Assembly (NCBI GenBank): GCA_030425385.1
Contig: JAUIAH010000012.1
Location: forward strand, 1-64,000
Length of the DNA: 64,000 nucleotides
Source of the DNA: Verrucomicrobiia bacterium
Lineage (GTDB): Bacteria; Verrucomicrobiota; Verrucomicrobiia; Verrucomicrobiales; DEV007
Direction: 5' to 3'
Below, one piece after another: positions 2,066 through 64,000 of this stretch; positions within the stretch are counted from its first letter, which is position 1; each line of letters begins with the position of its first letter. Made by a program: the position numbers and the translations under genes. A model generated the notes under the pieces. The model saw only the letters and a program-made list of their open reading frames with translations. It made no database searches and was not told the origin of the DNA.

Positions 2066-2124
2066 AGGGACAGGAGAGCCACATTTAAAGGGACAGGAGA
2101 GCCACATTTAAAGGGACAGGAGAA
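2036..2124. repeat. Tandem array of about 3.9 copies of the 23-bp unit catttaaagggacaggagagcca. It shares the TTTAAAGGGACAG core with the 1404-1443 repeats.
   Basis: Perfect head-to-tail copies at 2036-2058, 2059-2081 and 2082-2104, and a partial copy at 2105-2124. The array overlaps the 3' end of the RHS fragment ORF. Confidence 0.85.
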
Positions 2125-2174
2125 ATAATGGGAAAGCAGTTGTCAAGATCAAGAGGTGGGTGTAGGTCCGGATT

Positions 2175-3212: not shown

Positions 3213-3642
3213 TAGAGAACCACAAATGGACACGAAAGAGAGCGGAGTGATGGAAGCTGAAGGGGTTGGAGGGAGGCCGCGTGGGGAGATGAAGAGGGCT
3301 CGAGTAGTCGCCAAGGCGCAGAGGTGTTGTTAGAGCGGATTGGTGAGTGTTAGAACCTTGAGTGAATGAAGGCGAATGATCATGTGGATAGGCCGTCTTC
3401 AGGGAAAACGGAAGGGCCCTGAAGTTTGGACCACAGATCATCACCGATGAACACCGATGGATTTGATCGGTGCTTTGGAATTTGTGAGGTTGGGTGGGGT
3501 GATAGGGAAGTACGAAAGGAAAGTGGGCGAGAGTGAGGAAGGCTCGCGCAGTGTTGTTAGGCGGAAAGAGTTCGTTGGAATCTCACGATTCACGACTGTG
3601 AGCCGCGTCTCTCCTCGAATGGAATGTGATGAGAGATTAGTG

Positions 3643-29723: not shown

Positions 29724-29783
29724 GCGTACTGTGAGGGGCGACAGGAATCCTGTCGCCCTCTGGTGACTGGGCTGCAGTGAGGA

Positions 29784-31838: not shown

Positions 31839-31873
31839 AGGTTTCTGGTGTTCGAGGTTGAGGTGGTTGGTGA

Positions 31874-32512
31874 TCAGGAATCGAGTTTGCGAACAATGTA
31901 TGTTTGCGCGTTGTCGAGCGTCTCCACGACGAGGGCGCGATCGCCCTTGCTGAGTGGCTTCTGGCCCTCGGAAATGCGGACGTGGAGGAGGAGGGGATTC
32001 CCCGATTCATCCTCACATTCGGCTTGTCCGAAGTCTTCGGTCACTTCACTTGTCTTGATGATGCAAGAGCGCCCCACGACGGGGCGATGTTTCTCGCCCG
32101 CACGGAGGGCGCGCATGAAGGGTTTCAGCGGTGTCGTCACCAACTTGGTGGCGAAGAGACACACGATGAAATTGCCTAACAAAAGTCCGGCAGCCAAGGG
32201 CAGAGACCCTTGGGGATTCAGGTAGTAATTGAGTAAGACCGACGTGCCCCACATCAAGGCGATGAGCACGGATAACAAGACCATGAGGGGGATCTCCCCA
32301 AGGTTGAAGAACCGCAGTAACCCTAACCGGAAACTGCTTCCATGGGCGTCCGCATCGGCATCGGCATCGAGATCCACATCGAGGTCGGGCTCTAACGAAT
32401 CGGTATCTGCGGCGCCGACGATCGTGAGCACCCAGAAGAGCACGACCAATCCTAGCAAGATGGTGAGCGGGAAATTCGGGAGTTTGAGAGCTTCGTGTAA
32501 GAGATCAGACAT
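31874..32512 (-). CDS. NfeD-like / YqiJ-like (DUF1449) membrane protein with a C-terminal OB-fold-like domain
   Basis: Three predicted TM helices followed by a ~80-aa beta-rich soluble C-terminus. It sits 35 bp upstream of the flotillin gene on the same strand, the canonical yqiJ-yqiK arrangement. Confidence 0.75.
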   Translation of the reverse strand: MSDLLHEALKLPNFPLTILLGLVVLFWVLTIVGAADTDSLEPDLDVDLDADADADAHGSSFRLGLLRFFNLGEIPLMVLLSVLIALMWGTSVLLNYYLNPQGSLPLAAGLLLGNFIVCLFATKLVTTPLKPFMRALRAGEKHRPVVGRSCIIKTSEVTEDFGQAECEDESGNPLLLHVRISEGQKPLSKGDRALVVETLDNAQTYIVRKLDS

Positions 32513-32732: not shown

Positions 32733-33413
32733 TTAGCTCCGTCGGCGGCGAAAGAGCAAGGAGGCTCCCAACAGTCCGAGAAGGCTCACGGAGGGCTCAG
32801 GGATGGCATCAGCCGCGCGCAACTCCACGTCGTCGAACATTGCCGACTGCGGATTGGCTTGAGCATCCATCCCGTCGACCATGCCGACGCGAACGACAGC
32901 GCTCGTGGCACCGGCGGGAGCCACCGTCGAGAGCGTGTAATTCTGCCAGCTTCCATCTTTGGGATGGGAATCGATGTTGCTGGATTCCATTGACAGGACG
33001 TTGTCTGATCCATCGAGGAAATCGACCGAGAAGAATGTGGACGCCGCTGTGTAATTGGCTTCCTGCTTGCTCCAGACGGATAGCTCGTAACTGAGACCAC
33101 CCATGACAGCGACCGTCTGAGAAGCGGTAGCGTTCGCAAGGGCATCGCCCGCGGCTTGCGCGCCTTCGAACGCTTTCAGCCATAGACCAACGCCCGGGTC
33201 CCCATTGGGATTGCTTGCCCAACCGGCATCTTGATACTGTGCGGAGAAACCCGTGCCATCTGGCTGATTCGCTTCCAAATTCCACACAGGATTGGATTGG
33301 CTGTTGGCGGTAGACATCTCGAAACCCGAATCCACGAGGATGTTCGTAGCGCCCATGGAGGAAGTGAGGCCCAAGGCTGCGAGGGCTCCGACAAGAGGAA
33401 GGGGTGATTTCAT
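32733..33413 (-). CDS. PEP-CTERM sorting-domain protein with an N-terminal carbohydrate-binding-like beta-sandwich domain
   Basis: Signal peptide. C-terminus ...AIPEPSVSLLGLLGASLLFRRRRS (PEP motif + TM + Arg tail). The N-terminal ~150 aa are paralogous to the N-terminus of the adjacent 1261-aa protein (NLEANQPDG.GFSAQYQ.AGWAS...GLWLKAFEG). Confidence 0.7.
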   Translation of the reverse strand: MKSPLPLVGALAALGLTSSMGATNILVDSGFEMSTANSQSNPVWNLEANQPDGTGFSAQYQDAGWASNPNGDPGVGLWLKAFEGAQAAGDALANATASQTVAVMGGLSYELSVWSKQEANYTAASTFFSVDFLDGSDNVLSMESSNIDSHPKDGSWQNYTLSTVAPAGATSAVVRVGMVDGMDAQANPQSAMFDDVELRAADAIPEPSVSLLGLLGASLLFRRRRS

Positions 33414-33475: not shown

Positions 33476-36400
33476 CTACTGGGAATTCTGCAAACGATAG
33501 AACCCCTTTTCCTGAGATACGCGGGTCGGCTCGCGGTCGAGGTAGACGCCGTTCGACGATTGTCCAACTTCTTGCCAATCAACGAGATCTGTCGAGAAAG
33601 CAATGCCAACGGATTCCTGGGCATCCAGCTCCAAGCGGATGCCGTCGACGGATCGCTCAATCGTTTGGATCTGAGGTATCCCTGGAGCCGAGCTTTCACC
33701 CCTCTCAAAGGCGATGAGGACGGGGCTGAAGCCTTCTGGCAAGGGGCCATTGACCACGGCATCCCATTCTCCCACCTGGCTTGCTCGGTAGACTTCTAGG
33801 GCGGCCCCGCCGGTGCGATTATACATCAGCATCTCTAGGCGATGCTCCCCGGCCTCCAGGTGAATGGTGCGCATGGTGTGATTGCGACCGCGATTGCCGT
33901 CGAATTCGATGATCTCCGTCCCGTTGATGCGAAGTTGGCCCCCGTCATCGGAGTTGAAACCGATCCCCCACGGTCCGGATTCCGCGACCACGAATTTCCC
34001 AACGGCATGCACGATGAAGTGGTCTCCTACCTCACCGTCGAAGAGCACATCGCCAGGAAGGCTAGCGGTATTCGCCTCGGTGTCCGTGAAATTGATCACT
34101 TCGTGAAGCGCCACCGTCTCAATCCCTGGCGCCCTTCCATCGAGCAGGGCGCGTGCATCTGCTAGAGATTGCACTTGTCCATCATCGCTCACAATGGTGC
34201 GCACGACAAAGCGGTTGGGCTGGCTAGCAGCCGAAAGCGGATCGACGTCATTGTCCAATTCGATCTTATCACTAAACCCATCGCCATCGGTATCTGCTAG
34301 TTTAGGATCAGTGAGAGTTTCTTGACGTTCAGTGAGATCATTCAAGCCATCGCCATCGGTGTCCGCATTGATCGGATTCAATTCGAGCGCGATCTCCTCC
34401 TGATCTTCGAGCCCATCACTATCAGAATCACGTGCCGTGGGATTCGTCCGATGCACCATCACCTCCTCGCCATCGGAGAGTCCATCGCCATCGGTGTCGG
34501 CCACCTTGGGATTCGTGACCAGGGTCTGCTCGTTAAGATTGGTGAGCCCATCATGATCGGGGTCGGCTTCAGGCTCTGCTGACAAATCACCAAAGTTCTC
34601 CATTTCCCAAGAATCACGCAAGCCATCATTGTCCAGATCACCAGCATCGCGAAGCAATGTCAGGGTGCCGTCTCCTGAAATCCCTTCATCCAATCCGAAG
34701 ATCGCGAGCAGGTCCGCGGCGTCAAAGGGGCCGTTGGACTCGACCACATCGGAAAGGCTGAAGCTGACGTCACCACCTTCCGTGAGTCCGATCAAGTCGC
34801 CCACAGCCACATCGTCATCTAGAATCAACTCGAAACCGGTGCCCTGCAATTGCAGGATGGCATTAGGGCTGGAAAGGGGATAAGCAAAGGTGAGGGCTCC
34901 GTTGGCAATGCGAATCACGCCCGTGCCGAGCGATCCAGGAGTTGTCCCCGTCGCATCCACGCCATCAAACCGCATTTCCCCAGAGAACTGGCTTCCTGCC
35001 CCTGACAGCATTACCTTGGCAGTGGTCTCGGGATCATCACCGGTGAAACGCACGGTCCCATTGCCTTGAAGCACCGAGGCGAGGTCCAACTCATGATCAT
35101 GCACGGCAACGTCCACATCGCCACTCAGCGTCAACACCCCTTCCAGCCGATTCGAATTGCCAACATCGACCATGGCATCACGAATCACCAAAGGCGCCGA
35201 AGCGGAGCCCTCATGGGCCAATGATAGAGTCATGTGAGGTCCTCGCACTTCAAGCAAGTCTCCATCAAATGGGCCCCGGGAACTCACCAAGGTATTGGTC
35301 ACTCCGCCAAGTGCCAAATATGTTTTGCCGGCAGTAGGAACCGCCTCATCTGCCCAGGTCGCCGCCACGTTCCAAGCACCGTCCGCACCTGCCACCGTCA
35401 CTGTGGGAGCGTCGTTGGCGTTGAGAGGATCTGTCTCTAACGCTAACTCCACATTGTCCGCATACTCGTCTCCGTCGGTATCGCGCTTGGCGGGATCCGT
35501 TCCAATCACATTGACTTCTTCGGGATCTGTGAGGCCGTCGCCATCGGTATCCACCATGGCTGGACTACTCCCATGTTCCGCCACCTCGGCGCCATCTTCC
35601 AAGCCATCGCCGTCCGAATCTCTTTCCGTTGGATTTGCCATGGCTGCCAACTCATCGCGGTCATTGAGCCCGTCGCTATCGGCATCGCCGGTGCCGTCGC
35701 GCGTGAGATCACCGAAGAAGAAGCGCTCCCGGAAATCATCCATGCCATCACTATCAGTATCCTCGGTCACCACCTGGTGAACGTCATATCCTGACAAGAG
35801 TTCATAGAATTCTTCCGTCACTTGGGGTGGCTCCGTTCCTTCATCCAGGACGAGCCGTCCGATAAAGAGACTCACTCCGGCACCGCCTGCCGCCTCCCAA
35901 TGGAGCAGTTCGAAGGTGTGCAATCCTGCCTCCAATTCCGTGGTGAGCACCGAATTCATCCGCGAGCGATTGCCGAAGGTTCCCACCAACTCGCCGTCGA
36001 CTTTCAATTCGAAGCCATCATCGCTATTCACCACGAAGGGGACGATGCCGCCTTCTTTAAGATAGAATTCTCCCGTGGCTAGGATCGCATAATGATCGGA
36101 TCCTTGCAAAGACACCTCGCCGTCCAAATCCGGATCGAAGAGCGGATATGGCCGCGAAGCGCTTTCGTAGATTGGCGGCGCTCCGCCATCATCGAAGTGC
36201 ACGAAGGGGACCGTGAACGTTCCGCGCCCCTCTGCTTCTTGATCTTCAAAGGAAGCCCGCGCCAAGGCCGCATCGGTGATCTCAACGCCCGTGCCATAGA
36301 CATGCAAGACATCGACCGTTCCCCCCGCGTAGAGAATCGATCCGGGGACACGATGCCTGCCCTCGGCAGCGATCACTTCCCCATTCTGATCCACTGCTTG

Positions 36401-37237
36401 AAAGACCCAGGGAATCCTCGCATCTGCCTCAAACGGTGTTTCTGATAGATAGGTGAATGCGGTTAGCGTTCCCTGTTGTGAATTCTCTAATGGCACGTCC
36501 TCGCCCCCGAAAGTGAGTCTTGCTGAATCGGGATCCACGGTGCTTCCCTCGGTATTCTCTACCACAATGCGAAACCGAGTCGTCCCTCCGCCCGAATCGA
36601 CCACTTGCGCTACCGAGGCCAGTTCGACGGCGGTGAGGCTGAAGTCATCAACCATCGCGGACTGCGGATTTGCCATGGCATTCACCCCACCGACCATGGT
36701 TGCGCGCGCCTGGAGTTCCGTGGTGCCCTCTGGCGCCGTGCCCTTCGCCGAGAAGAATTCCCAAGAACCATCGGCGGGATGTTTCCCGTTCAGCTCGTTC
36801 TCCACACTGGCAAGGATCTCTCCGGCGCCATTGAGAAAGTCCAGGGCAAGAATGGTAGAGGCCGAGCTATAGTTTGTCTCCACCCGCACCGCGGCGCGCA
36901 ATTCATACCCCTGCCCGGCCTCTCCCGGCACGCGTTGGGTGAGGGTGACTTCAGCCGCAGGCTCCGTCTCCGAGTTGCCACCTTCGAATGCCTTCAGCCA
37001 GAGCCCGATCCCTGCGGTGCCCGCTGGGTAGCTCGCCCAGCCTGCCGATTGATACTGCGCCGAGAAATTCTGTCCGTCTGGTTGATTGGCCTCCAGGGTC
37101 CAACTTGGATTCTCCTGTGAGGCCGGCTCAGAAGCCTCTAGAGAGGGATCTGCCAACAGATTCACCTGTGCCTGAGCGAGAACACTGGTCGCTAGGAGAC
37201 CAGACGAAATGATTAAGAAGGGGGCCTTGGGTCGCAT
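33476..37237 (-). CDS. Giant secreted surface protein (~1250 aa) with: an N-terminal CBM-like domain; two PA14 domains; two blocks of thrombospondin type-3 (Ca-binding DxDxDG) repeats; and a C-terminal FYRL-ending beta-sandwich module.
   Basis: Signal peptide MRPKAPFLIISSGLLATSVLAQA. PA14-like segments GEFYLKEGGIVPFVVNSDDGFELKVDG and GKFVVAESGPWGIGFNSDDGGQLRING. Repeated DTDGDGLSDGEE-type motifs. C-terminus ...FSTDLVDWQEV...GFYRLQNSQ. Confidence 0.7.
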   Translation of the reverse strand: MRPKAPFLIISSGLLATSVLAQAQVNLLADPSLEASEPASQENPSWTLEANQPDGQNFSAQYQSAGWASYPAGTAGIGLWLKAFEGGNSETEPAAEVTLTQRVPGEAGQGYELRAAVRVETNYSSASTILALDFLNGAGEILASVENELNGKHPADGSWEFFSAKGTAPEGTTELQARATMVGGVNAMANPQSAMVDDFSLTAVELASVAQVVDSGGGTTRFRIVVENTEGSTVDPDSARLTFGGEDVPLENSQQGTLTAFTYLSETPFEADARIPWVFQAVDQNGEVIAAEGRHRVPGSILYAGGTVDVLHVYGTGVEITDAALARASFEDQEAEGRGTFTVPFVHFDDGGAPPIYESASRPYPLFDPDLDGEVSLQGSDHYAILATGEFYLKEGGIVPFVVNSDDGFELKVDGELVGTFGNRSRMNSVLTTELEAGLHTFELLHWEAAGGAGVSLFIGRLVLDEGTEPPQVTEEFYELLSGYDVHQVVTEDTDSDGMDDFRERFFFGDLTRDGTGDADSDGLNDRDELAAMANPTERDSDGDGLEDGAEVAEHGSSPAMVDTDGDGLTDPEEVNVIGTDPAKRDTDGDEYADNVELALETDPLNANDAPTVTVAGADGAWNVAATWADEAVPTAGKTYLALGGVTNTLVSSRGPFDGDLLEVRGPHMTLSLAHEGSASAPLVIRDAMVDVGNSNRLEGVLTLSGDVDVAVHDHELDLASVLQGNGTVRFTGDDPETTAKVMLSGAGSQFSGEMRFDGVDATGTTPGSLGTGVIRIANGALTFAYPLSSPNAILQLQGTGFELILDDDVAVGDLIGLTEGGDVSFSLSDVVESNGPFDAADLLAIFGLDEGISGDGTLTLLRDAGDLDNDGLRDSWEMENFGDLSAEPEADPDHDGLTNLNEQTLVTNPKVADTDGDGLSDGEEVMVHRTNPTARDSDSDGLEDQEEIALELNPINADTDGDGLNDLTERQETLTDPKLADTDGDGFSDKIELDNDVDPLSAASQPNRFVVRTIVSDDGQVQSLADARALLDGRAPGIETVALHEVINFTDTEANTASLPGDVLFDGEVGDHFIVHAVGKFVVAESGPWGIGFNSDDGGQLRINGTEIIEFDGNRGRNHTMRTIHLEAGEHRLEMLMYNRTGGAALEVYRASQVGEWDAVVNGPLPEGFSPVLIAFERGESSAPGIPQIQTIERSVDGIRLELDAQESVGIAFSTDLVDWQEVGQSSNGVYLDREPTRVSQEKGFYRLQNSQ

Positions 37238-37385
37238 CGAACAATCACAACACGTTCGCATTCAACAGCAAGCGCTTTGTGAAGAGAATGTTTCGATGTG
37301 TTAGCGTGTGCCTGCCCTGTGAAACGAAATGTCCTGATTCAGTGGCTTGCCTTTCTTGGTAGGGGGCAGAGCGTCCTTCTGTCTC

Positions 37386-40300
37386 ATGATTGTGTATCTC
37401 CCTATCAAACGCCTCTCGCTACTTCTCGCGTCCATCCATGCCAGCTTGCTCTGTCTCGCTCACAGCCAGGGCTTGGCCGATGGGTTGGTCTCCTATTGGC
37501 CACTCGATGATGGCCTTCCCTCACGCATGACGACTTCCATTAGCGATCTGCAAGGTGCCAATCCTCTAACATTAGACGCCTCGGATCCCGAATCTGCCTG
37601 GCTGACAGGGCCTTCGGCTAAGTCGCGCGGGGCGTTGCAAGTAGATGGCGAAAGCCGCTACGTGGTCGTGCCTTCATCGGAGACGCTCGATCTCGGCACG
37701 AATGCGGTGACCCTATCGGTTTGGGTGAACCTTGCGCAGTTACCCGCGGATCTGCCCGATGCCTTTGGCGGCATCTTTGATTCGGCGAATGATGCCTATG
37801 TCCTCTACCTCGATCGCGGTGCGAACGAGTTGCGTTTCAAAGTCACGGCGGACGGAGCGCAGCGTCCTGGAATCCCTGCCGCAGATCTCACGGTGGGCGA
37901 ATGGATGCACGTCGTCGGAGTCTACGATGGCGTGGAGTCTCGCATTTATGCCAATGGTGAATTGAAAGACACCCACGCAGGACCTACAGGCCAAGTGATC
38001 AGTGGGCAAATCGCCGGTATCGGTCGTAATGGGGACGAGGATCGCTATTTCCTTCAGACGGCAATCGACGAGATGGCGCTTTGGAATCGAGCCCTCACTG
38101 AATCTGAGATTCAGACTATCAGAGACACAGGGCTTGTCTCGATCGATGATTCGGAGGCTGATGGCATGCGAGATTCCTGGGAAATGGAGACGTTTGGCAA
38201 TCTCGACAGCGACGGGACGGGCGATGGCGACAACGATGGTCTCACTGATCTGGAAGAGTTCACCCACGGCACACTTCCAGACACGGCGGACAGCGACATG
38301 GATGGTCTGCAAGATGGCGACGAAGTGGCGACCTATGGTTCGGATCCACTGCACGCGGACACCGATCGCGATGGGATTTCTGATAGTGACGAAGTTGCTA
38401 GTAACACCAGCCTCACACGTGCAGACACGGATGGCGACGGATTAACTGATCTTGAAGAAGCCACCGTCTATCAAACCGATGGCACCCTGGCCGATAGCGA
38501 TGGTGATGGATTCACGGATTCCCAAGAATTGGCCGCAGGCACGGATCCCAATGTGCAGGGCGATTTGCCGGGCAGCAATACGGTCTTTCTGGTGCGTTCG
38601 GCGATGGCCGGGGAAACGTGGATGGAACCAAGCTTGTGGTCGGATGGGGCCGCGCCCCAAGCTGGAAAGCACTATGTGATCCCTGGATTCGGTGCCGATG
38701 AATTGGTGGTCATGGCCGAAGGCGAAACGACCTTTCCTGGCGATTCGCTTGCGGTCTTCACAGGTACTCAATTGCGCCTTTCTCAAGCGGGCACAGGCGT
38801 GATCACCATCCCCTCGCTCGTGCTCAATGGGGGGCAGTTGGTGATCGAGGGCACCACCGCATTGACCCTCGCCGGAGAGGTCACCGTCACAGGAAACACG
38901 CAGATTGCGTTAGGAGCCGAAGGCGACGCTGTCACCCTAGCATCCACCCTTGCAGGTGATGGTCAGTTGACCGTTCGGGCGCCCATGGGTGAAACGACTC
39001 CCCGCACCTTTATCCTGGCGGGCTCCGGGAGCACCTTTGCAGGTGATCTCATCTTTGATCACGTTTCGCTCAATGCCAGGACGCCTGGATCTCTTGGCAA
39101 TGGCAACGTCCACATGATCAGCAGCAGCATTGATATCGATTACAATGCCTACAATCCTGAATCCAGCTTAACCCTTGCGGGTGCTGGTTCTATCATTGTT
39201 CTTGATCAATTCCTGATCTTCAAAGCGCTTATCATCGCAGAGACCACATTTCCTGATGGCACCTATGACTTTGCAGCTTGGGAAGCGCTTGATCCGAATG
39301 CCGCCGATTTCATCATGGACGGCGGGGGAGCCATTGTGATTGGCGGAGATTCTGACAATGATCGGCTCCTAGATGCGTGGGAATTGCGCTATTTCCCCGA
39401 TCTTAGCACCTCAAGTGGCGGGGATGATCCTGACGGGGACACGCTCAGCAATGAGCAAGAATTCATTGCCGATACCAATCCTACCTTGCTCGACACGGAT
39501 GCCGACACGCTTTCTGATGCCGATGAAGTCAATACGCACGGCACGAACCCGCTGGTGAGTGATACGGATGGGGATCGCCTAACGGATGCCGAAGAACTCG
39601 CTCGCGAAGAGCCCAGCAATCCTCTGCGTGCGGACACGGACGCTGATGGTCTCTCGGATGGCGACGAAGTGCTCGACTATCTAACCAATCCTCTCCTTGC
39701 CGATAGCGATGAGGACACATATGCCGATGCCTTTGAGATCCATGATAATGGCGACCCATTGGATGCCAATGTGATCCCGCGATTGGCGCAATTGAACCTT
39801 CTCGACGGACTCGTTTCCTTCTGGACATTCAATGATGGGCTCACTCGGGCAGACACCTTGTCCATTGCCGATGTCCAAGGGCGCAATCATTTGCAACTCG
39901 TCTCACCAGATGCTGCCGCCGCTTGGCTATCAGGTGAACTGGCCAAGAATGACGGTAGCCTGCGCATTCTCGGAACCGAAACTTATGTGCCCGTTCCGAA
40001 CACGCCGAGCCTTAATCTCACGACGGATGCCGTCACGCTTTCGGCTTGGGTGCAGCTTGATGAATTGCCCAGTGCCATGGCGAGTAGTTTCGGTGGGATC
40101 TTCGATTCTCGCAATGACGCTTATGTGCTCTATTTGGATCGTGGCAATGCGGAATTGCGTTTTAAAGTCACCGCAACGGGAGCCGAGCGCCCAGGCATTC
40201 CCGAGTCAGAATTGACTCTTGGAGAGTGGCTGCACATCGCCGGTGTTTACGATGGCGCGGCGCAGGAATCCCGCATTTATCTAAATGGGCAATTGATGGA

Positions 40301-41642
40301 TACGCACCAGAACCCTACCGGCACGGTGATCCCAGATCAGATCGCTGGGATCGGCAGAAATGGCGATGAAGATGCCAGTCACTTTCACGGCGCCATTGAC
40401 GACCTCGGCATCTGGAATGTGGCGCTCACATCCACACAGATCAATCAACTCATGGAAGGTCCTTCCGATGTGGACCTAGACACGGATGATGATGGCTTGC
40501 TCGATTCCTGGGAGTTAGCCTCCTTTGGCAACCTCGATCAAGATGCGTCTGGCGATCTTGATAATGATGGCCTCGACCATGCCGCAGAGTTTATCGCGAT
40601 GACGCATCCCAACCAGAGTGATTCCGATAACGATGGCGTTCTCGATGGCGAAGAGCTTGACTTTGGCACAGACCCCCTTGATGCGACGAGTGCGCCAGTG
40701 GTGATCACTGAGGGGCTGGGCAAGGGATTGGTGGCTTATTGGCCACTCGATGATGGCGTCGAGGATCCTAGCACCACATCGATTGCCGATGAGATTGGCC
40801 TCTCGCCACTAACGCTCACCTCACCGGAGCCAGCAAACGCATGGCTTACGGGCGATACCGTTCCGACCGCTGGCGGTGTGCGGGTGAATGGCGTTGATGA
40901 CTATATCGTCATCCCGAACACGCCTGCTTTGGACATTCCAGGGGACACCATGAGTCTTTCCATGTGGGTTTTGTTAGATCAGCTTCCCTCAGAGATCGAA
41001 AGTGGCTTTGCCGCCATCTACGATTCTTCAAATGACGCCTACGTGTTCTATTTGGATCGCAATAACGGTGAGCTGCGTTTCAAAGTCACGGCGACGGGAG
41101 CCGCTCGTCCAGGCATTCCAGAAGCTGAGCTCACCACTGGCGAATGGATGCACATCACGGGTGTGTATGATGGCCCCACTGGGGAAGCCCGCATTTATAA
41201 GAATGGCGTTCTTATGAGCACGGTTGGTGGGGTTAGTGGAATCGTTCGGGCAGGTCAACTGGCCGGTATTGGACGTCAAGGTGATGAAGAAGCCAATTAT
41301 TTCTCCGGTGGTGTCGATGACGTTGCCGTGTGGAAACGTATCCTTCTCCCCGATGAGATCATGGACCTTGCCAATGGGGCATCGATCCTAGGGGCGACGG
41401 AACCGGATCCCGATTTCAAAGTCACTTCGATTGCCATTGATGACGCAGGCATCTCCTTGCAATGGGACGCGATTCAGGGGCGTCACTACACCGTTCAATA
41501 CACCGAAGACCTGAGCAGCAACCAATGGTCTGACGTTGTTTCCGATCTCGCCGCACCGATGGATGGTCCAATCACATTCACTGATACCGAGGTGAGAGGG
41601 CTTGAGATTGGATTCTACCGCATTCTTGAACAGGCCAATTAG
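37386..41642 (+). CDS. Giant secreted surface protein (~1418 aa) with three LamG/Concanavalin-A-like lectin domains, each followed by TSP3-type Ca-binding repeats, and a C-terminal FYRI-ending module
   Basis: Signal peptide after start at MIVYLPIKRLSLLLASIHASLLCLAHS. Three ~210-aa units share the pattern GLVSYWPLDDG...AVTLSVWV...FGGIFDS.NDAYVLYLDRG..ELRFKVTA.GA.RPGIP...GEW.H..GVYDG...RIY.NG. Runs of DSD.DG..DGEE repeats. Divergent from the 1261-aa gene. Confidence 0.7.
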   Translation: MIVYLPIKRLSLLLASIHASLLCLAHSQGLADGLVSYWPLDDGLPSRMTTSISDLQGANPLTLDASDPESAWLTGPSAKSRGALQVDGESRYVVVPSSETLDLGTNAVTLSVWVNLAQLPADLPDAFGGIFDSANDAYVLYLDRGANELRFKVTADGAQRPGIPAADLTVGEWMHVVGVYDGVESRIYANGELKDTHAGPTGQVISGQIAGIGRNGDEDRYFLQTAIDEMALWNRALTESEIQTIRDTGLVSIDDSEADGMRDSWEMETFGNLDSDGTGDGDNDGLTDLEEFTHGTLPDTADSDMDGLQDGDEVATYGSDPLHADTDRDGISDSDEVASNTSLTRADTDGDGLTDLEEATVYQTDGTLADSDGDGFTDSQELAAGTDPNVQGDLPGSNTVFLVRSAMAGETWMEPSLWSDGAAPQAGKHYVIPGFGADELVVMAEGETTFPGDSLAVFTGTQLRLSQAGTGVITIPSLVLNGGQLVIEGTTALTLAGEVTVTGNTQIALGAEGDAVTLASTLAGDGQLTVRAPMGETTPRTFILAGSGSTFAGDLIFDHVSLNARTPGSLGNGNVHMISSSIDIDYNAYNPESSLTLAGAGSIIVLDQFLIFKALIIAETTFPDGTYDFAAWEALDPNAADFIMDGGGAIVIGGDSDNDRLLDAWELRYFPDLSTSSGGDDPDGDTLSNEQEFIADTNPTLLDTDADTLSDADEVNTHGTNPLVSDTDGDRLTDAEELAREEPSNPLRADTDADGLSDGDEVLDYLTNPLLADSDEDTYADAFEIHDNGDPLDANVIPRLAQLNLLDGLVSFWTFNDGLTRADTLSIADVQGRNHLQLVSPDAAAAWLSGELAKNDGSLRILGTETYVPVPNTPSLNLTTDAVTLSAWVQLDELPSAMASSFGGIFDSRNDAYVLYLDRGNAELRFKVTATGAERPGIPESELTLGEWLHIAGVYDGAAQESRIYLNGQLMDTHQNPTGTVIPDQIAGIGRNGDEDASHFHGAIDDLGIWNVALTSTQINQLMEGPSDVDLDTDDDGLLDSWELASFGNLDQDASGDLDNDGLDHAAEFIAMTHPNQSDSDNDGVLDGEELDFGTDPLDATSAPVVITEGLGKGLVAYWPLDDGVEDPSTTSIADEIGLSPLTLTSPEPANAWLTGDTVPTAGGVRVNGVDDYIVIPNTPALDIPGDTMSLSMWVLLDQLPSEIESGFAAIYDSSNDAYVFYLDRNNGELRFKVTATGAARPGIPEAELTTGEWMHITGVYDGPTGEARIYKNGVLMSTVGGVSGIVRAGQLAGIGRQGDEEANYFSGGVDDVAVWKRILLPDEIMDLANGASILGATEPDPDFKVTSIAIDDAGISLQWDAIQGRHYTVQYTEDLSSNQWSDVVSDLAAPMDGPITFTDTEVRGLEIGFYRILEQAN

Positions 41643-41674
41643 CGCTCAACGCTGGCCTTTCGCTTATCCAACAA

Positions 41675-41707
41675 GAAGAAGGACTTGGCACAGCCAAGCC
41701 CTTCTTC
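41675..41707. terminator. Bidirectional stem-loop between convergent genes (gaagaaggacttggcacagccaagcccttcttc)
   Basis: Perfect 8-bp outer stem gaagaagg/ccttcttc plus inner cttggc/gccaag pairing. Lies between the stop of the 37386..41642 gene (+) and the stop of the 41731..42642 gene (-). Confidence 0.5.
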
Positions 41708-41730
41708 GCATCCGATCGGTGAGACGGTCG

Positions 41731-42642
41731 TCACTCTGCGAGGCTCACTTCCACGCGAAGCAGTTGCGTGAATGCCGATATCGGAAGATCCCATTCCGTC
41801 GCTCCGCCTTCGGCATCATCTGCTAGCGTGAAGCGATCCAGTTCCACCCAATGCTGGCCGGTGGGGCTGCCTAACAAACGGTAAGTGCGTCCGGGAAGTG
41901 TTTGAAACTCGACACACCCCACGCCGGGTTCATCTTGGCGCATCGTGATGCGATCAATGCCAAAGCGCGACCGCCGATCATTGGGAGCGGTTCCCGCCGC
42001 AAACTCCTGACGCAGTGTCTGACCGTCTCCATCAGCATCCTCGTCAGCGTTGCGCATGGCGAAGGCTTCTTCAAAGGCATCAGGCAAGCCGTTGGCATTG
42101 CGATCAGGGCCCGACCGATCGAAGAGAGCACGCTGGGGTCTATCTGGATCGCCCTCCAAAGGCTCGTAGATCAGGGTGGCCGCCGCAAAGCTGAAACTGA
42201 CATTCTCAGAAGGTGACTGCGCGTGCACCATGTGCACACGGTGGTCGACTACTTGCACGTCTTCGAGAAGGAATTGCACGGTTTCCTCTGAGCGCTTGTT
42301 CTCCGGTCCCAGATAGACCAGGGTGAGCTTTGGAAAGACACGTCCTTCTGCGAGGGCCTCCACGAGTTTGGGGGTGGCTTTGTCTAACGGACGCACAACG
42401 GAGAACGTCTTGCCGATCGTAGGAACGCGTCTTCCTTCGCTCGGGACGCTGCTTTCCAAGTCTAACTGATGACCAAAGGCCTCGACGGCCATCCAGCCTT
42501 GCCATGCCTCTGGCACGCGGTCGCTTTCAGCGGTGAAGGCGTTGTCGTCGCTCTCCAGTTTGAGATAGCCTGTGGGCAGGGCCTTGGCCCCGAGGGGGCA
42601 GAGGAGCAAGAATGCCAGGGCGTTGAGTGAGACCGCTTTCAT
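41731..42642 (-). CDS. Secreted Hcp-like (T6SS tube-protein fold) domain fused to TSP3-type repeats and a C-terminal LRVEV-ending beta-sandwich module
   Basis: Signal peptide MKAVSLNALAFLLLCPLGAKA. Hcp-like blocks GYLKLESDDN...EAWQGWMAVEAF, RPLDKATPKLVEALAEGRVFPKLTLVY and VQFLLEDVQVVDHRV...ENVSFSFAAATLIYEP. Then DRNANGLPDAFEE...DEDADGDGQT and the shared C-terminal module. Confidence 0.6.
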   Translation of the reverse strand: MKAVSLNALAFLLLCPLGAKALPTGYLKLESDDNAFTAESDRVPEAWQGWMAVEAFGHQLDLESSVPSEGRRVPTIGKTFSVVRPLDKATPKLVEALAEGRVFPKLTLVYLGPENKRSEETVQFLLEDVQVVDHRVHMVHAQSPSENVSFSFAAATLIYEPLEGDPDRPQRALFDRSGPDRNANGLPDAFEEAFAMRNADEDADGDGQTLRQEFAAGTAPNDRRSRFGIDRITMRQDEPGVGCVEFQTLPGRTYRLLGSPTGQHWVELDRFTLADDAEGGATEWDLPISAFTQLLRVEVSLAE

Positions 42643-42689: not shown

Positions 42690-43292
42690 TTATTTCACTT
42701 CCCGAAGTTCTTCGCGTGCGAGGATCACGAGTTCGTCAGCTTCTCGTAGGGAGACACCTTCCTCGACTTTCCATGAATAGGAGACTTCCTCGGATGGGCG
42801 CCCACTGGCATCGTAGGTCGTGTAGGTCCACTCCACCTTTTCGTAGTTGAAGCTTACTTCCTCCATGGGTACCTCGTTTCCTGCGGCACTCCCATTCACC
42901 GAATAACTTGTGACGAGGACATTGGTCAGTTTGATCTTCAAATAGACGGCTTTCTCTTCTCCCCGTGTGAGTTCCAACTCAGCTTCTGGAATCACTTCTC
43001 CTGTGAGTAGGGCTCGTGCGAGCAAGGGCGATGATTTGTCGAGTTCCTTGACGCATTTAAGGTCCTCTATCACGGCGGCACCCCGACGGCGAGTTGCCCC
43101 TTCGCCCATATCTGGGCGGTGCATGGCTTGGCTGAAAGAAGCGATTTCGATCCAATCCTTGTGGTGGTTATCATTCGATTCGCCCTTGATATCGCCGAGT
43201 TTCAGATAGCCCGCTCCGGAAGCGGCGGAGAGGAGCGTGCCCATGGCGATCACGGTGAGAAACAGTTTGGAGGCGGTTGCTTTGGTATTCAT
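42690..43292 (-). CDS. Secreted Hcp-family (PF05638-like) protein with Sec signal peptide
   Basis: Signal peptide MNTKATASKLFLTVIAMGTLLSAASGA, then GYLKLGDIKGESNDNHHKDWIEIASFSQ, ELDKSSPLLARALLTGEVIPEAELEL, YLKIKLTNVLVTSYSVNGS and EEVSFNYEKVEWTY. These align block-for-block with canonical Hcp1 (FIKIGDVKGESKDK.H..EIDVLAWSWG; IDKSTPNLMMACSSGKH...; YLIITLKEVLVSSVSTGGS; NVTLNFAQVQVDY). Confidence 0.65.
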   Translation of the reverse strand: MNTKATASKLFLTVIAMGTLLSAASGAGYLKLGDIKGESNDNHHKDWIEIASFSQAMHRPDMGEGATRRRGAAVIEDLKCVKELDKSSPLLARALLTGEVIPEAELELTRGEEKAVYLKIKLTNVLVTSYSVNGSAAGNEVPMEEVSFNYEKVEWTYTTYDASGRPSEEVSYSWKVEEGVSLREADELVILAREELREVK

Positions 43293-43492
43293 GACAGGAA
43301 TGTGTTTGTAGTTTGGTTGGAAGAGTGGCGGGCCGTGTTTGGTGACCCGCACGTGGTTACCCCCTTTCAATGCAAACCGATTTCGAAAGGTACACGATTT
43401 CTGCCCATGCCTTTCGGAGAAGAGGGACGTTGGAAATCAGGTTTTAGTTTAGGATGGCCCGATCTGGGCTAGGTTGTGATTCCCCCCTATCA

Positions 43493-44125
43493 ATGGCTGA
43501 TCAGCGATACGTCACCCGTCCCACGCTCCTGTTGCGCTTGCGAGATCGCGAGGATCAGCATTCGTGGACGGAGTTTGTGGAGATCTACGGGCCGCTGATT
43601 CATCGTTTCGCCCTCAGTCGTGGGGTGCCTCACCATGATGCGGCGGATATCACTCAGGATGTGCTGCGAAATGTGTCTCGGGCGATGCAGCGGTTCGAAT
43701 ATAACCCGAAGAAGGGGTCGTTCCGTTCCTGGCTATTCACAGCCGTGCGGCGCGAGATCGGGGGCGCGGCGGAGAAACAACGGCGCAAGCCGGGAACGGC
43801 GGGACCGGATGATGCCGATGCCTACTTGCGGCAACTTCCGGACGAACAGGACACCTTTGATTGGCATGGCGACTACCAGAGGCGTCTGGTGAGTTGGGCC
43901 ATGGCGAAGATCAAAGCGGAGTTTGCTGAGAATACTTGGGGTGCTTTTCTGGCATTGGGTCTCGAGGGCAAGAGTGCGCAAGAGGCATCGGAAGCGCTCG
44001 GAATCACGGTGGGCAGTGCCTACGTGGCCAAGTGTCGCGTGCTGAAACGGCTGACTGAGATGATTCGTTCGGTGGATGATGAGGAATGGGAGGTGGACCT
44101 GATTCGCTCGGAGGGGCGCGGCTGA
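43493..44125 (+). CDS. ECF-type RNA polymerase sigma factor (sigma-70 regions 2 and 4)
   Basis: Region-2 block FVEIYGPLIHRFALSRGVPHHDAADITQDVL and a C-terminal region-4 HTH; ATG at 43493. Confidence 0.8.
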   Translation: MADQRYVTRPTLLLRLRDREDQHSWTEFVEIYGPLIHRFALSRGVPHHDAADITQDVLRNVSRAMQRFEYNPKKGSFRSWLFTAVRREIGGAAEKQRRKPGTAGPDDADAYLRQLPDEQDTFDWHGDYQRRLVSWAMAKIKAEFAENTWGAFLALGLEGKSAQEASEALGITVGSAYVAKCRVLKRLTEMIRSVDDEEWEVDLIRSEGRG

Positions 44126-61906: not shown

Positions 61907-64000
61907 CTACTCCAGCTCCTCGCGCACCTGGACGCGAAGGTAAAGTTGTCTTGCTTGCTGAGGAATAGGAAACTGTAAGACGCCAGGCTGCGAGAGGTCG
62001 GCATGCACTGTGGAGAGCGTCCACGTCTCAAGGTCTCCTGACTGTTCGAGAGTGAACTGATAGGAGCCGTCGCCTGTCACGGGATAGCGCAGTTGCCACC
62101 CGTCTCCTGTCGGCATCCAAGCCGGCTTGCCTAACGGAAGCGCCCTGTCTGGCGTTTCCTCAGAGCCTTCGTAGCGGAGTGAGGCGATGAGATGCCCTTC
62201 TCGATTAAGCAAGCGGATCTCTTCGCCACGACTGGAAAGATTACCATCGTAGTCGCCCTGAATAAAGCGCCGCTCGCCTCCGCGAGGGCCTTCGGTTCGC
62301 GCACGGAATGCTCGGCTATCCTTCACCACATAGAGGTGTTGGCGGCCGGGGGCAAAGAGACTGGCCGTGCTGAGAACAGTGCCAGGGTGAAAAGTGTGGC
62401 GCACGGCACCTTCCAAACGCCACCCAGATAAATCCACGGTGAACCGGTTTGGATTGCTGAGGACGAGGTATTCCTCATCTTGATTTCCGGAAACGGGGTC
62501 CACGTCCACCTCGAGGATCTCGATCGGCGGCTGCGATGGCTGCGCCTCTGGGATGCCCACACCACCTCCGCGTTCAAAGAAATCGCGTCGATCTGCCAGA
62601 TACTCTTCTTTGATCCGCCCGACGGTTTCCTCCATCGATTCTCGCCTTCCACCGAAGTGGGCACGTGTTCCCCACGTTTCGTTGTCGACGATCGCATCCG
62701 GACCGATGGATGCTAACAAGGCGTCTAAGCGTTCTTCGAAGTGATTGTTCGCGAGGAAGGTATCATGCAAGGTGCGAATGCGGCGCAAGAGCATGTCTTG
62801 AGTGCGTGACGTCACGACGATGGCATCAATGAGTTCATTCGTCTTTCCGGCGTGGAGCGGAAAGCGGTGGCTTCCAATGAAGGGGTGTGTGGCATTGGGA
62901 TTGACCGTTCCCGCGCGCCGCTCCTCGTTGGCCAGGATGACATCGGTGTTCAAGGCGTCTGGCCCGAAGGAAAGATCGAGGTCCCAAGGGGTCATGAACC
63001 ACTCCCCGGATCCATCGGTGTCGCGATAGAGGTAGTGATTCTTATCGCTGCCATCAATGTTCTGGGTGATGGCGATGCCCGCCATGAAGTTCACTTGTGC
63101 TGGCAGATTCACATGGTCGAACAGGAACGTGGTCAAATCGGCGTCATTCAATCGCAGGCCTTCTAACAATTGCTCAAGATCCTCCTTGCCTTCTTCACGA
63201 CGGGTCTTCTTCTCGAACGGTCCGGTGCTTTTGTAAGTGGACCCTGGTCCCGCCTTGTAGTAGGCGCCATCAGGGTCCAGGTTGTTGCGTCGCAAGAAAT
63301 CGCGGTCTGGTTGTTCTACAAACAGCGCCACGCTGTAGAAGGCGCCATTCTGATGCACCCGCCATGGCAAGGTGATCGGTGACGGAGCCCCAGAAGCCTG
63401 ATGGAGTTCCGTGGTGAGAATGGCGCGTGCATAGGATTTGTCCGTGTAGGTGGCGTTGAGATTGAATTCATCCACTCGTGGCCACTGGGGATCGAACGCG
63501 AAGTGGTGATCCTCAGGGAACTCCACCTTGAAACTCTTCTTGGGCCAGCCACGGGCTGTTCCACCACGCACGCGGGTGAAGAGATTGTCATAGAACTCCC
63601 CTCGAAACCAACAGGCGCTCCGAGTGCCGCCATCCGTTTCCGCTAGACGTGGTTCCTCCACGAACCAGTGAAAGATGTCTAACGTTGTTTCAATTGGGCC
63701 AGGATCAAAGACAGTGCCCATGAATTCCTCGTCATCCTCTTGCAGAAAGGCAGGCAGTCTTGTTTGCTCGCCTGTGTTTGTTTCCACGAGTACTGCCCAA
63801 CGCACCATTTCGCCCGGTTTGAAGAGTGGGCCAAACAGGGATTGGTTGGAGATGGAGGCGGTATAGAGGCCATCTCCCGCCACTTCATCGGGAGCCATGC
63901 CATCATCGGTCATGAGTCGATCAGAAGGGTTCTTGAACATCACGCGGGCTAACAAGCGTACCGCAGCAATGGCGTTCCCGTGCGCATGAACCCGAGCCGT
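61907..64000 (-). CDS. CotH-family (spore-coat-protein-H-like kinase fold) secreted protein with a lamin-tail domain (LTD) and C-terminal LRVQV-ending module; 5'-partial (continues past window end)
   Basis: CotH blocks YTDKSYARAILTTELHQASGAPSPITLPWRVHQNGAFYSVALFVEQPDRDFL and HYLYRDTDGSGEWFMTPWDLDLSFG. LTD block DEEYLVLSNPNRFTVDLSGWRLEG. No in-frame stop between 63955 and the window end. Confidence 0.7.
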   Translation of the reverse strand, partial: TARVHAHGNAIAAVRLLARVMFKNPSDRLMTDDGMAPDEVAGDGLYTASISNQSLFGPLFKPGEMVRWAVLVETNTGEQTRLPAFLQEDDEEFMGTVFDPGPIETTLDIFHWFVEEPRLAETDGGTRSACWFRGEFYDNLFTRVRGGTARGWPKKSFKVEFPEDHHFAFDPQWPRVDEFNLNATYTDKSYARAILTTELHQASGAPSPITLPWRVHQNGAFYSVALFVEQPDRDFLRRNNLDPDGAYYKAGPGSTYKSTGPFEKKTRREEGKEDLEQLLEGLRLNDADLTTFLFDHVNLPAQVNFMAGIAITQNIDGSDKNHYLYRDTDGSGEWFMTPWDLDLSFGPDALNTDVILANEERRAGTVNPNATHPFIGSHRFPLHAGKTNELIDAIVVTSRTQDMLLRRIRTLHDTFLANNHFEERLDALLASIGPDAIVDNETWGTRAHFGGRRESMEETVGRIKEEYLADRRDFFERGGGVGIPEAQPSQPPIEILEVDVDPVSGNQDEEYLVLSNPNRFTVDLSGWRLEGAVRHTFHPGTVLSTASLFAPGRQHLYVVKDSRAFRARTEGPRGGERRFIQGDYDGNLSSRGEEIRLLNREGHLIASLRYEGSEETPDRALPLGKPAWMPTGDGWQLRYPVTGDGSYQFTLEQSGDLETWTLSTVHADLSQPGVLQFPIPQQARQLYLRVQVREELE

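What the first reader, a model, noticed from the sequence alone, without database searches (positions are those of the whole stretch)
33476..42642. Shared ~65-aa C-terminal beta-sandwich-like module (..DL..W.....FYR[LI] / LRV[EQ]V) on four unrelated secreted proteins: candidate sorting/anchoring tag
Four secreted proteins end with a colinear module: the 1261-aa PA14 protein (...FSTDLVDWQEV...GFYRLQNSQ); the 1418-aa LamG protein (...YTEDLSSNQWSDV...GFYRILEQAN); the Hcp-TSP3 fusion (...WVELDRF...LLRVEVSLAE); and the CotH-LTD protein at 61907..62110 (...GDLETWTLS...LYLRVQVREELE).

All four keep a conserved Trp about 30 residues upstream and an aromatic-Arg-hydrophobic motif within 3-9 residues of the stop. 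Their N-terminal architectures are otherwise unrelated.

This is the pattern expected of a dedicated C-terminal sorting or attachment signal (cf. PEP-CTERM/exosortase, T9SS CTD, LPXTG), or of a common cell-wall-binding FN3-like domain. One PEP-CTERM protein is also present in the locus, so this organism may use at least two C-terminal tagging systems.
Basis: seen in the sequence. Interest (0 to 1): 0.7.

Follow-up and report, generated by a model that had tools for sequence, protein, structure and literature searches.

The report
Strictly C-terminal short FN3-like tail domain
Four exported proteins in this Verrucomicrobia-type window end in the same ~70-residue fibronectin-III-like beta-sandwich that lacks the usual last strand. 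The domain has no Pfam or NCBIfam model and closes thousands of otherwise unrelated extracellular proteins, so it may hold or sort them at the cell surface, but it is not a classical cleaved sorting signal.

Summary
All four ORFs end in one colinear ~67-79 aa module. Support is strong for the LamG and Hcp tails, borderline for the PA14 tail and indirect for the CotH tail.

Pfam and NCBIfam have no model for it. A profile search found 6260 protein clusters.

Its position is extreme. In 88 of 88 module-bearing ORFs from a metagenome sample chosen with patterns internal to the domain, the last copy ends within 2 residues of the stop. Internal copies occur only as tandem repeats upstream of a terminal copy, and they look identical to terminal ones. 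Passenger domains are very diverse.

It is not a PEP-CTERM/LPXTG-type signal, because it has no transmembrane helix and no basic tail. It is not a T9SS CTD either.

My best reading is a non-covalent surface-attachment or docking module. This is an inference; an export-signal role is not excluded. Two of the four "unrelated" proteins are paralogs.

The parts
33476..37261 (-). PA14/TSP3 exported protein. The probable start is the ATG at 37237 (1253 aa), followed by the Sec-type signal MRPKAPFLIISSGLLATSVLAQA.
   Evidence: P0222 (1253 aa) has the same length and appears identical on reading.
33479..33679 (-). C-terminal short FN3-like module of the PA14 protein (67 aa, IPQIQT...GFYRLQNSQ). It is a divergent member.
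   Evidence: External HMM E 0.012 with a full-length alignment, third best of 667 ORFs. 34 real hits above the best decoy.
37347..41642 (+). LamG x3/TSP3 exported protein, probable ATG at 37386 (1418 aa). It is a paralog of the PA14 protein over a 575-aa core.
   Evidence: P0137 (1418 aa) is near-identical.
41412..41639 (+). C-terminal short FN3-like module of the LamG protein (76 aa, DFKVTS...GFYRILEQAN). This is the most canonical copy in the window.
41731..42642 (-). Signal peptide + Hcp-like domain + TSP3-like repeat + module (303 aa).
   Evidence: P0185 is near-identical.
41734..41970 (-). C-terminal short FN3-like module of the Hcp-TSP3 protein (79 aa, SRFGID...LLRVEVSLAE).
   Evidence: External HMM E 7e-5. 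72 real hits above the best decoy.
61907..63955 (-). CotH + LTD protein. The reading frame is open to the window edge at 64000, so the protein is truncated at its N-terminus here.
   Evidence: The same CotH+LTD+module architecture is seen in P0267, L003 and L021.
61910..62131 (-). C-terminal short FN3-like module of the CotH-LTD protein (74 aa, GKPAWM...LYLRVQVREELE). It is the most divergent copy.
32733..33413 (-). Context. A 226-aa PEP-CTERM protein (…IPEPSVSLLGLLGASLLFRRRRS). Its passenger domain is 49% identical to aa 34-213 of the adjacent PA14 protein, so the same passenger appears with two different C-terminal ends.

Best explanation
SHOWN. The shared tail is a self-contained domain of about 70 residues from the fibronectin type III superfamily. 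It has only six strands. The chain ends 4-6 residues after the near-invariant Arg of the last strand, and the fn3 FG loop and G strand are missing.

The invariant Trp falls in the fourth strand and 'RFYR[VLI]' in the last one, in the place of the Y-x-x-R-V strand-F pattern seen in the canonical fn3 hits.

The family has no Pfam or NCBIfam model, is large (6260 clusters at 50% identity), and is found in Verrucomicrobiota genomes and in soil, peat, sediment and sludge metagenomes. It sits at the extreme C-terminus of proteins whose other domains are typical extracellular ones and very diverse. It occurs as one copy or as a tandem array of up to 8 copies that runs to the stop codon. Signal peptides are clear in three of the window proteins and, by a crude heuristic, in about half of the others checked.

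INFERRED. It is not removed like a sortase-type signal. It acts as a folded C-terminal docking module that holds the passenger non-covalently on a cell-envelope or matrix component, with tandem copies adding avidity. Functionally this resembles GW, choline-binding, SLH or dockerin modules.

For the window, this means four exported proteins (PA14 lectin-like, LamG, Hcp-like, CotH kinase-like) would be retained or displayed through this tail, in parallel with a PEP-CTERM/exosortase route used by the neighbouring 226-aa protein.
For: FOLD AND HOMOLOGY
- AF2 of the LamG tail: pLDDT 90.3, strands at 4-10, 13-20, 25-31, 40-47, 52-58 and 68-74.
- AF2 of the CotH tail gives the same strand order.
- The module profile also retrieves bona fide PF00041 fn3 proteins.
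- hhalign of the module against those fn3 copies gives 97.9% probability and E 6e-13. The last ~23 fn3 columns are unmatched.
- The tandem period is 79 aa, against 89 aa for canonical fn3.

NO EXISTING MODEL
- Pfam and NCBIfam give no hit on the tails or on tandem-array proteins.

SIZE
- 6260 proteins at E<=1e-3 in 1.84e9 cluster representatives.

POSITION
- 88/88 ORFs in 80 metagenome loci, chosen with patterns internal to the domain, end within 2 aa after the last copy. Of these, 75 have one copy and 13 have two or three.
- 7/7 in an HMM scan of the Verrucomicrobiota loci.
- 4/4 in the window.
- 116/150 top profile hits, with 292 of 393 copies inside the contiguous C-terminal array.
- The chain ends exactly 5 aa after the Arg in 70/87 ORFs, and Pro is the last residue in 43/88.

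PASSENGER DIVERSITY
- LamG, PA14, Hcp, CotH+LTD, GSDH, PD40, Exo_endo_phos, Big_5/Big_9, cadherin-like, DUF11, MBG/YDG, Ig-set arrays, RCC1+M6 peptidase, NosD+Kelch, NHL, Malectin+CARDB, reprolysin.

BINDING MODULE RATHER THAN SIGNAL
- Tandem arrays of variable copy number.
- Terminal and internal copies are not distinguishable at any conserved column.
- No hydrophobic or basic tail in any of the 150 top hits.

POSITIONAL EQUIVALENCE WITH ANCHORS
- LamG homologs in other phyla carry PEP-CTERM or a T9SS CTD at the same place.
- The PA14 protein's N-terminal domain recurs next door on a PEP-CTERM protein.
- A choice-of-anchor X domain is present in the CotH protein.
Against: - No experiment, and nothing in these data, shows binding, retention or localisation.
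- No conserved neighbouring partner gene was found. The best recurrent family appears in 5 of 80 loci, and the window neighbours are housekeeping genes.
- A pure binding module would not obviously need to be C-terminal in 100% of cases. That strictness is more typical of export signals such as the T9SS CTD.
- Model coordinates could not be inspected, so the exposed strand-F edge is inferred from strand counts and profile alignment only.
- The taxonomic range beyond Verrucomicrobiota is undetermined, because the metagenome loci carry no taxonomy.
- Membership of the PA14 and CotH tails rests on weak sequence statistics.
- The signal-peptide checks were crude heuristics: 29/63 and 10/23 were clearly positive.
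Confidence: 0.5

Rival explanations
1. Export or sorting domain. The folded tail would be recognised by dedicated outer-membrane machinery and direct the passenger across or onto the outer membrane, with or without later removal. It would work like the T9SS C-terminal domain without being related to it.
For: - Strict placement at the extreme C-terminus (88/88) with a fixed distance to the stop.
- A many-unrelated-passengers-to-one-tail pattern.
- Homologous passengers elsewhere carry a T9SS CTD or PEP-CTERM at the same position.
- The T9SS CTD is likewise a small Ig-like beta-sandwich whose C-terminal strand can swap (PMC4804311).
Against: - Tandem arrays of up to 8 copies, with internal copies identical in their conserved positions to terminal ones, are not expected of a single-use signal.
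- There is no sequence relationship to T9SS CTDs (hhalign 1.7%; no PF18962 hit).
- No candidate machinery is encoded nearby.
- To my knowledge T9SS is not found in Verrucomicrobiota.
Confidence: 0.2
2. Generic FN3-type structural or stalk domain with no special role. On this view the C-terminal bias reflects how a 3'-terminal cassette spreads by duplication and recombination.
For: - Clear homology to ordinary fn3.
- Tandem duplication is common.
- The conserved residues fall within the predicted strands.
Against: - A spacer has nothing to space at the very end of a chain.
- 88/88 terminal placement across very different passengers and habitats, and thousands of clusters, argue for selection on the position.
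- Canonical fn3 in the same search is mostly internal.
Confidence: 0.14
3. C-terminal prodomain or intramolecular chaperone, like the bacterial pre-peptidase C-terminal (PPC) domain. It would aid folding or export and be clipped off afterwards.
For: - Small beta-sandwich at the C-terminus of exported enzymes, including the reprolysin and M6 peptidases.
- PPC domains can occur singly or doubled (my own knowledge of PF04151).
Against: - There is no PF04151 hit on the module. P0178 has a separate PPC hit at residues 813-892, away from its C-terminal module.
- Most passengers are not proteases.
- Arrays of up to 8 copies.
- No conserved cleavage motif lies between passenger and module.
Confidence: 0.08
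4. Sortase/exosortase-type cleaved sorting signal (PEP-CTERM, LPXTG, GlyGly-CTERM class).
For: Only the C-terminal position and the diversity of passengers.
Against: - The defining tripartite architecture of motif, transmembrane helix and basic cluster (PMC3237569) is absent.
- The tails end in polar or acidic residues or in Pro.
- None of the 150 top hits has a hydrophobic or basic tail.
- The region folds as a beta-sandwich.
Confidence: 0.01
5. Chance resemblance among four tails.
For: Pairwise BLASTP between the window tails is weak. The CotH tail is not significant against the HMM.
Against: - External-only profile: E 8.7e-17, 7e-5 and 0.012 for three of the tails.
- Decoy-controlled hits for all four.
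- Thousands of homologs.
- The same fold is predicted.
Confidence: 0.01

Closest known systems
Fibronectin type III domain (Pfam PF00041, fn3)
   Same: Homologous beta-sandwich:
- The module profile retrieves true fn3 proteins.
- hhalign gives 97.9% probability.
- It shares the strand-B Trp, the strand-C Tyr and the strand-F Y-x-R-V type motif, and it forms tandem arrays.
   Different: - Six strands, not seven; the FG loop and G strand are absent.
- Period of 79 aa against 89 aa.
- Not detected by the Pfam fn3 model.
- Almost always at the extreme C-terminus, whereas ordinary bacterial fn3 is mostly an internal linker.
T9SS C-terminal domain (Por_Secre_tail, PF18962/TIGR04183; RgpB CTD structure, PMC4804311)
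   Same: - A small Ig-like beta-sandwich at the extreme C-terminus of many unrelated exported proteins.
- LamG homologs in Bacteroidota/Ignavibacteriota carry it where the window protein carries the module.
   Different: - No sequence relationship (hhalign 1.7%).
- Seven strands against six.
- The T9SS CTD is single-copy, whereas this module forms tandem arrays.
- The T9SS CTD is cleaved by PorU; nothing is known here.
- No T9SS components were seen in the window.
PEP-CTERM/exosortase, LPXTG/sortase and GlyGly-CTERM/rhombosortase signals
   Same: - C-terminal position.
- One tail shared by many passengers.
- A genuine PEP-CTERM protein lies next to the PA14 gene and shares its N-terminal domain.
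   Different: Those signals are about 25-35 aa and tripartite (motif, transmembrane helix, basic cluster). This module is a folded ~70-aa soluble domain with none of those elements.
Non-covalent C-terminal anchoring repeats (GW modules, choline-binding repeats, SLH, LysM) and dockerins
   Same: Works-like analogy only: terminal placement, variable tandem copy number, all copies equivalent, very diverse passengers.
   Different: - No sequence or fold relationship.
- Those systems have known ligands (lipoteichoic acid, choline, secondary cell-wall polymers, peptidoglycan, cohesin), and most are from monoderm bacteria.
- The ligand here is unknown and the hosts are diderm.
Bacterial pre-peptidase C-terminal domain (PPC, PF04151)
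   Same: A small beta-sandwich of about 70 aa at the C-terminus of secreted enzymes, sometimes duplicated.
   Different: - No Pfam match on the module.
- PPC is tied to peptidases and is removed after secretion.
- Passengers here are mostly not peptidases.

Membership tests
fn3 (PF00041) / FN3 superfamily | Scores above the Pfam fn3 gathering threshold | tested here: not met
   No fn3 hit on any of the four window tails or on the module copies of tandem-array proteins. In P0127 the only fn3 hit is a separate N-terminal domain at residues 28-101.
fn3 (PF00041) / FN3 superfamily | Detectable profile-level homology to bona fide fn3 domains | tested here: met
   34 of the top 150 hits to the module profile do not end in the module. 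All five of those scanned (P0259, P0184, P0199, P0210, P0269) are PF00041 proteins, with E between 2e-27 and 1e-107. hhalign gives 97.9% probability and E 6.4e-13.
fn3 (PF00041) / FN3 superfamily | Seven-strand A-B-C-C'-E-F-G sandwich | tested here: not met
T9SS C-terminal domain (PF18962 / TIGR04183) | Match to the Por_Secre_tail models, or profile similarity to known CTDs | tested here: not met
   No hit in Pfam or NCBIfam. hhalign against nine PF18962-bearing tails gives 1.7% probability.
T9SS C-terminal domain (PF18962 / TIGR04183) | Extreme C-terminal Ig-like beta-sandwich on Sec-exported proteins | tested here: met
   This is a works-like feature, not evidence of membership.
T9SS C-terminal domain (PF18962 / TIGR04183) | Host encodes T9SS (PorU/V/K/L/M/N, Sov) and the CTD is cleaved | not testable with these tools
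   Only 64 kb of the genome is available. No such genes were seen among the window ORFs scanned.
PEP-CTERM / LPXTG / GlyGly-CTERM class | Tripartite tail: signature motif, transmembrane helix, basic cluster (PMC3237569) | tested here: not met
   The tails read ...GFYRLQNSQ...GFYRILEQAN...LLRVEVSLAE and ...LYLRVQVREELE. None of the 150 top hits has a hydrophobic or basic tail. As a positive control, the neighbouring ORF 32733-33413 does have IPEP + hydrophobic stretch + RRRR.
PPC pre-peptidase C-terminal domain (PF04151) | Match to PF04151 | tested here: not met
   No hit on the window tails. In P0178 the PPC hit at residues 813-892 is separate from its C-terminal module.
Proposed new family: strictly C-terminal short FN3-like tail | Consensus ...I.S....G...L.W....G..Y.lQy...L....W..l....A.G......D......RFYRV, with the chain ending 4-6 residues after the Arg | tested here: met
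   - LamG tail: E 8.7e-17.
- Hcp tail: 7e-5.
- PA14 tail: 0.012.
- CotH tail: indirect only.
- Terminal placement: 88/88, 7/7 and 4/4.

The most novel reading that the evidence does not exclude
The tail is the recognition element of an undescribed surface-display or export route in Verrucomicrobiota and other soil and water diderms. It is a folded FN3 that lacks strand G, and its open strand-F edge and free C-terminus would be completed by a donor strand from an outer-membrane or envelope partner, or from another tail. This would work like donor-strand complementation in pilins, or strand swapping in the T9SS CTD. If so, thousands of unrelated enzymes and adhesins share one docking mechanism that runs in parallel with PEP-CTERM/exosortase.
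Probability: 0.18. Interest if true: 0.75.

Novelty: new variant of a known kind. Interest (0 to 1): 0.45.

Why it matters
It is largely unknown how Verrucomicrobiota and related diderms keep or release their very large sets of extracellular enzymes and adhesins. Apart from PEP-CTERM and GlyGly-CTERM, no general tag is described for them.

This is a domain with no Pfam or NCBIfam model. It closes the polypeptide in every case sampled, occurs in thousands of protein clusters and is carried by very different passengers. That makes it a concrete, testable handle:
- An HMM can now annotate these proteins as one class.
- A tail-deletion or tail-fusion experiment would show whether the module anchors, exports or merely decorates.

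If it proves to be an ordinary structural FN3 variant, the gain is only a better domain annotation.

Tried and rejected
- A word-indexed homolog search with the LamG tail alone and with an 11-sequence tail alignment found nothing at E<=1e-3. The domain is too short and too divergent for that tool.
- Exact-sequence contig look-ups for the Hcp and PA14 proteins found no record, so the source genome was not identified. Taxonomy rests on the Verrucomicrobiota relatives found.
- The AFDB Foldseek library was unavailable. Foldseek against PDB gave only weak FN3 hits (best E 0.05), so there is no close solved structure.
- tblastn of a four-copy protein against plasmids gave no match.
The consensus sequence worked.
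- Looking for a conserved neighbouring partner gene in 80 loci turned up none.
- The TSP3-to-module junction seen in the window and in L001-L005 is not general: 3 of 96 arrays.
- Proteins made only of a signal peptide plus modules were sought. The small candidates looked like fragments.
- Literature searches for the motif and for Verrucomicrobia C-terminal domains found nothing on this family.
- Rejected: PEP-CTERM-like signal, T9SS CTD membership, PPC membership, chance resemblance.
Full report
**1. What is in the window**

- a PA14/TSP3 protein at 33476-37261(-);
- a 303-aa protein at 41731-42642(-) with a signal peptide, an Hcp-like domain and a TSP3-like repeat;
- a CotH+LTD protein at 61907-63955(-), whose frame stays open to the window edge.

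Pfam and NCBIfam annotate the N-terminal and central domains. Neither has a hit on the last ~75 residues of any of the four. A motif scan and later HMM scans of all six-frame ORFs found no fifth copy in the window.

**2. Is the similarity more than chance?**

The four tails are only weakly similar to one another (best BLASTP E 0.004), so I looked for outside relatives.

A genome scan seeded with the Hcp protein returned Verrucomicrobiota MAG loci. Their ORFs end in the same kind of tail.

A profile of the four tails plus three close homologs was searched against 1.84 billion cluster representatives. It found 6260 proteins at E<=1e-3 and 244 at E<=1e-10.

An HMM built only from 271 external copies was then searched against all 667 window ORFs:

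| Tail | E-value |
|---|---|
| LamG | 8.7e-17 |
| Hcp | 7e-5 |
| PA14 | 0.012 (full-length alignment at the C-terminus) |
| CotH | 3.4 (not significant) |

In a decoy-controlled phmmer test, all four tails hit real copies above the best of 1258 decoys: 460, 72, 34 and 14 respectively.

The CotH tail has further support. It is colinear with the tail of P0267 (pairwise E 8e-4), a CotH+LTD protein that the profile hits strongly. The same CotH+LTD+module architecture recurs in L003 and L021. Its AF2 model has the same six strands at pLDDT 78.6, with the caveat that the alignment consisted of family members.

The observation therefore stands, with decreasing certainty in the order LamG, Hcp, PA14, CotH.

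**3. What the module is**

The module profile also pulls out proteins that Pfam calls fn3 with E as low as 1e-107. hhalign between the module and those canonical copies gives 97.9% probability and E 6e-13. The last ~23 fn3 columns, which are the FG loop and strand G, have no counterpart in the module.

Tandem arrays of the module have a period of 79 aa (IQR 76-84), against 89 aa for the canonical fn3 arrays in the same hit list.

The consensus is PRITSITVTNGGVTLTWNSVPGQTYRVQYKTDLASGNWTTLTPDVTATGGTTSFTDPTAASAPQRFYRVVLLP. Trp38 is invariant and Arg68 is about 95% conserved.

The Pfam fn3 model does not detect these copies, and NCBIfam has nothing for them.

About 50 Verrucomicrobiae GDPD+LamG proteins end in a diverged variant...YFRIEGx. 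hhalign relates it to the module at E 1e-4.

**4. Where it sits**

Among the top 150 profile hits, 116 end in the module. These carry 393 copies, 292 of them in a contiguous array of 1-8 copies that runs to the C-terminus. The other 34 do not end in the module, and all five that I scanned are ordinary fn3 proteins. That list is ranked by summed score and so favours multi-copy proteins.

I therefore took a second sample. A metagenome scan used six peptide patterns internal to the consensus and returned 80 loci from soil, peat, sediment and sludge. An HMM scan of all their six-frame ORFs found 88 module-bearing ORFs. In all 88 the last copy ends within 2 residues of the stop. Of these, 75 have one copy, 10 have two and 3 have three. 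The chain ends exactly five residues after the conserved Arg in 70 of 87, and on Pro in 43 of 88.

An HMM scan of the Verrucomicrobiota loci gave 7 hits, all terminal.

Every LamG homolog with the tail motif, 53 canonical and GDPD-type proteins in total, has it at the very end.

Internal copies exist only as tandem repeats in front of a terminal copy. Column by column, they are indistinguishable from terminal copies.

**5. What it is attached to**

Passengers are very diverse and of the kinds usually found outside the cell: LamG, PA14, CotH+LTD, glucose/sorbosone dehydrogenase, PD40 and NHL propellers, an Exo_endo_phos family (endonuclease/exonuclease/phosphatase) domain, GDPD, Big_5/Big_9, cadherin-like, DUF11, MBG/YDG, Ig-set arrays, RCC1+M6 peptidase, NosD beta-helix+Kelch, Malectin+CARDB and reprolysin-like metalloproteases.

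The window proteins with visible N-termini have Sec-type signal peptides and no lipobox. A crude hydrophobicity heuristic found signal-like N-termini in roughly half of the apparently complete carriers, which is supportive but weak.

The TSP3 repeat directly before the module in the Hcp protein and in L002, L003 and L005 is a lineage feature, not a general one.

**6. What it is not**

It is not a sortase/exosortase-type signal. The defining tripartite architecture of motif, transmembrane helix and basic cluster (PMC3237569) is absent from the window tails and from all 150 top hits. The PEP-CTERM neighbour shows that architecture plainly.

It is not a T9SS CTD. There is no PF18962 or TIGR04183 match, and hhalign against nine CTDs gives 1.7% probability. 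The RgpB CTD has seven strands (PMC4804311).

It is not PPC.

**7. How it most likely works**

Shown: the fold, the homology, the size of the family, the strict terminal placement, the tandem arrays, the equivalence of copies and the diversity of passengers.

Inferred: function.

A spacer role is hard to reconcile with a domain that always ends the chain.

A single-use export signal is hard to reconcile with arrays of up to eight equivalent copies.

Variable tandem copy number at a terminus is the hallmark of non-covalent attachment modules that gain avidity from repetition, such as GW, choline-binding, SLH and LysM modules (my own knowledge). The module also occupies the position that PEP-CTERM or T9SS CTDs occupy in homologous passengers from other phyla. 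Within this locus, the PA14 protein's N-terminal domain recurs, 49% identical, on a PEP-CTERM protein.

I therefore favour a folded docking or retention module at about 0.5. The rivals are an export-signal role (about 0.2), a neutral structural role (about 0.14) and a prodomain role (about 0.08).

No conserved neighbouring partner gene was found, and nothing in the literature library describes the family.

**8.

The PA14 and LamG proteins are not unrelated. They are paralogs over a 575-aa TSP3/beta-helix-like core (37% identity, E 2e-68), so the window offers three independent contexts rather than four.

The CotH protein is cut by the window edge, so its secretion status is inferred from homologs.

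**9. Verdict**

This is a real and statistically supported feature. It is a strictly C-terminal variant of the FN3 fold that lacks strand G and has no Pfam or NCBIfam model, and it is widespread in Verrucomicrobiota-type and environmental genomes.

As a protein fold it is a variant of a known kind. As a candidate general tail for surface or extracellular proteins of these bacteria it is a worthwhile, testable lead, but no function has been demonstrated.

Noticed in passing
window 41731-42642(-) and 42690-43370(-): Two adjacent Hcp-family (PF05638) ORFs both begin with Sec-type signal peptides. This is unexpected for T6SS tube proteins, which are not Sec substrates. They sit next to an ECF sigma factor (43454-44125+) and a Ser/Thr kinase with a zf-HC2 anti-sigma-like N-terminus (44171-46384+)..
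   Followed up: partly
window 32733-33413(-): A 226-aa PEP-CTERM protein lies immediately downstream of the PA14 gene. Its passenger domain is 49% identical (E 5e-51) to residues 34-213 of the PA14 protein, so the same domain appears with two different C-terminal ends in neighbouring genes.
   Followed up: yes
window 33476-41642: The PA14 and LamG proteins are divergently transcribed paralogs. They share a 575-aa core of TSP3 repeats flanking a beta-helix-like region (37% identity), with different lectin-like domains swapped in.
   Followed up: yes
proteins P0006-P0057, Verrucomicrobiae: About 50 GDPD+LamG proteins of ~590 aa all end in a diverged variant of the tail (…LGxGxYRFxY…[YF]FR[IV]EGx). 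It is related to the module at hhalign E 1e-4 and may be a second clade of the same C-terminal domain.
   Followed up: partly
window 61907-63955(-), residues 15-39: The CotH protein carries an NCBIfam 'choice-of-anchor X' domain hit (E 1e-7, above the cutoff). As I understand it, that name is used for domains found with varying C-terminal anchors.
   Followed up: no
window 24768-32512(-): Gene cluster made of a 1651-aa DUF3686/DUF7902/AAA ATPase, a 684-aa ORF with no Pfam hit and a YqiJ_N membrane protein. It appears unrelated to the module.
   Followed up: no
window 2001-4000; ORF 2175-3212(+): GC skew is unusually high here (0.36) compared with the rest of the window. The 345-aa ORF contains an 'NHLHLVLQ' motif reminiscent of IS200/RAYT-type Y1 transposases. 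That resemblance is from my own knowledge and was not tested.
   Followed up: no
L005 6598-8499(+), 8774-11590(+), 16415-18403(-): Three module-bearing genes with different passengers (GSDH; TSP3 only; Big_5) cluster within 12 kb of one Verrucomicrobiota contig. This mirrors the three adjacent carriers in the window.
   Followed up: partly
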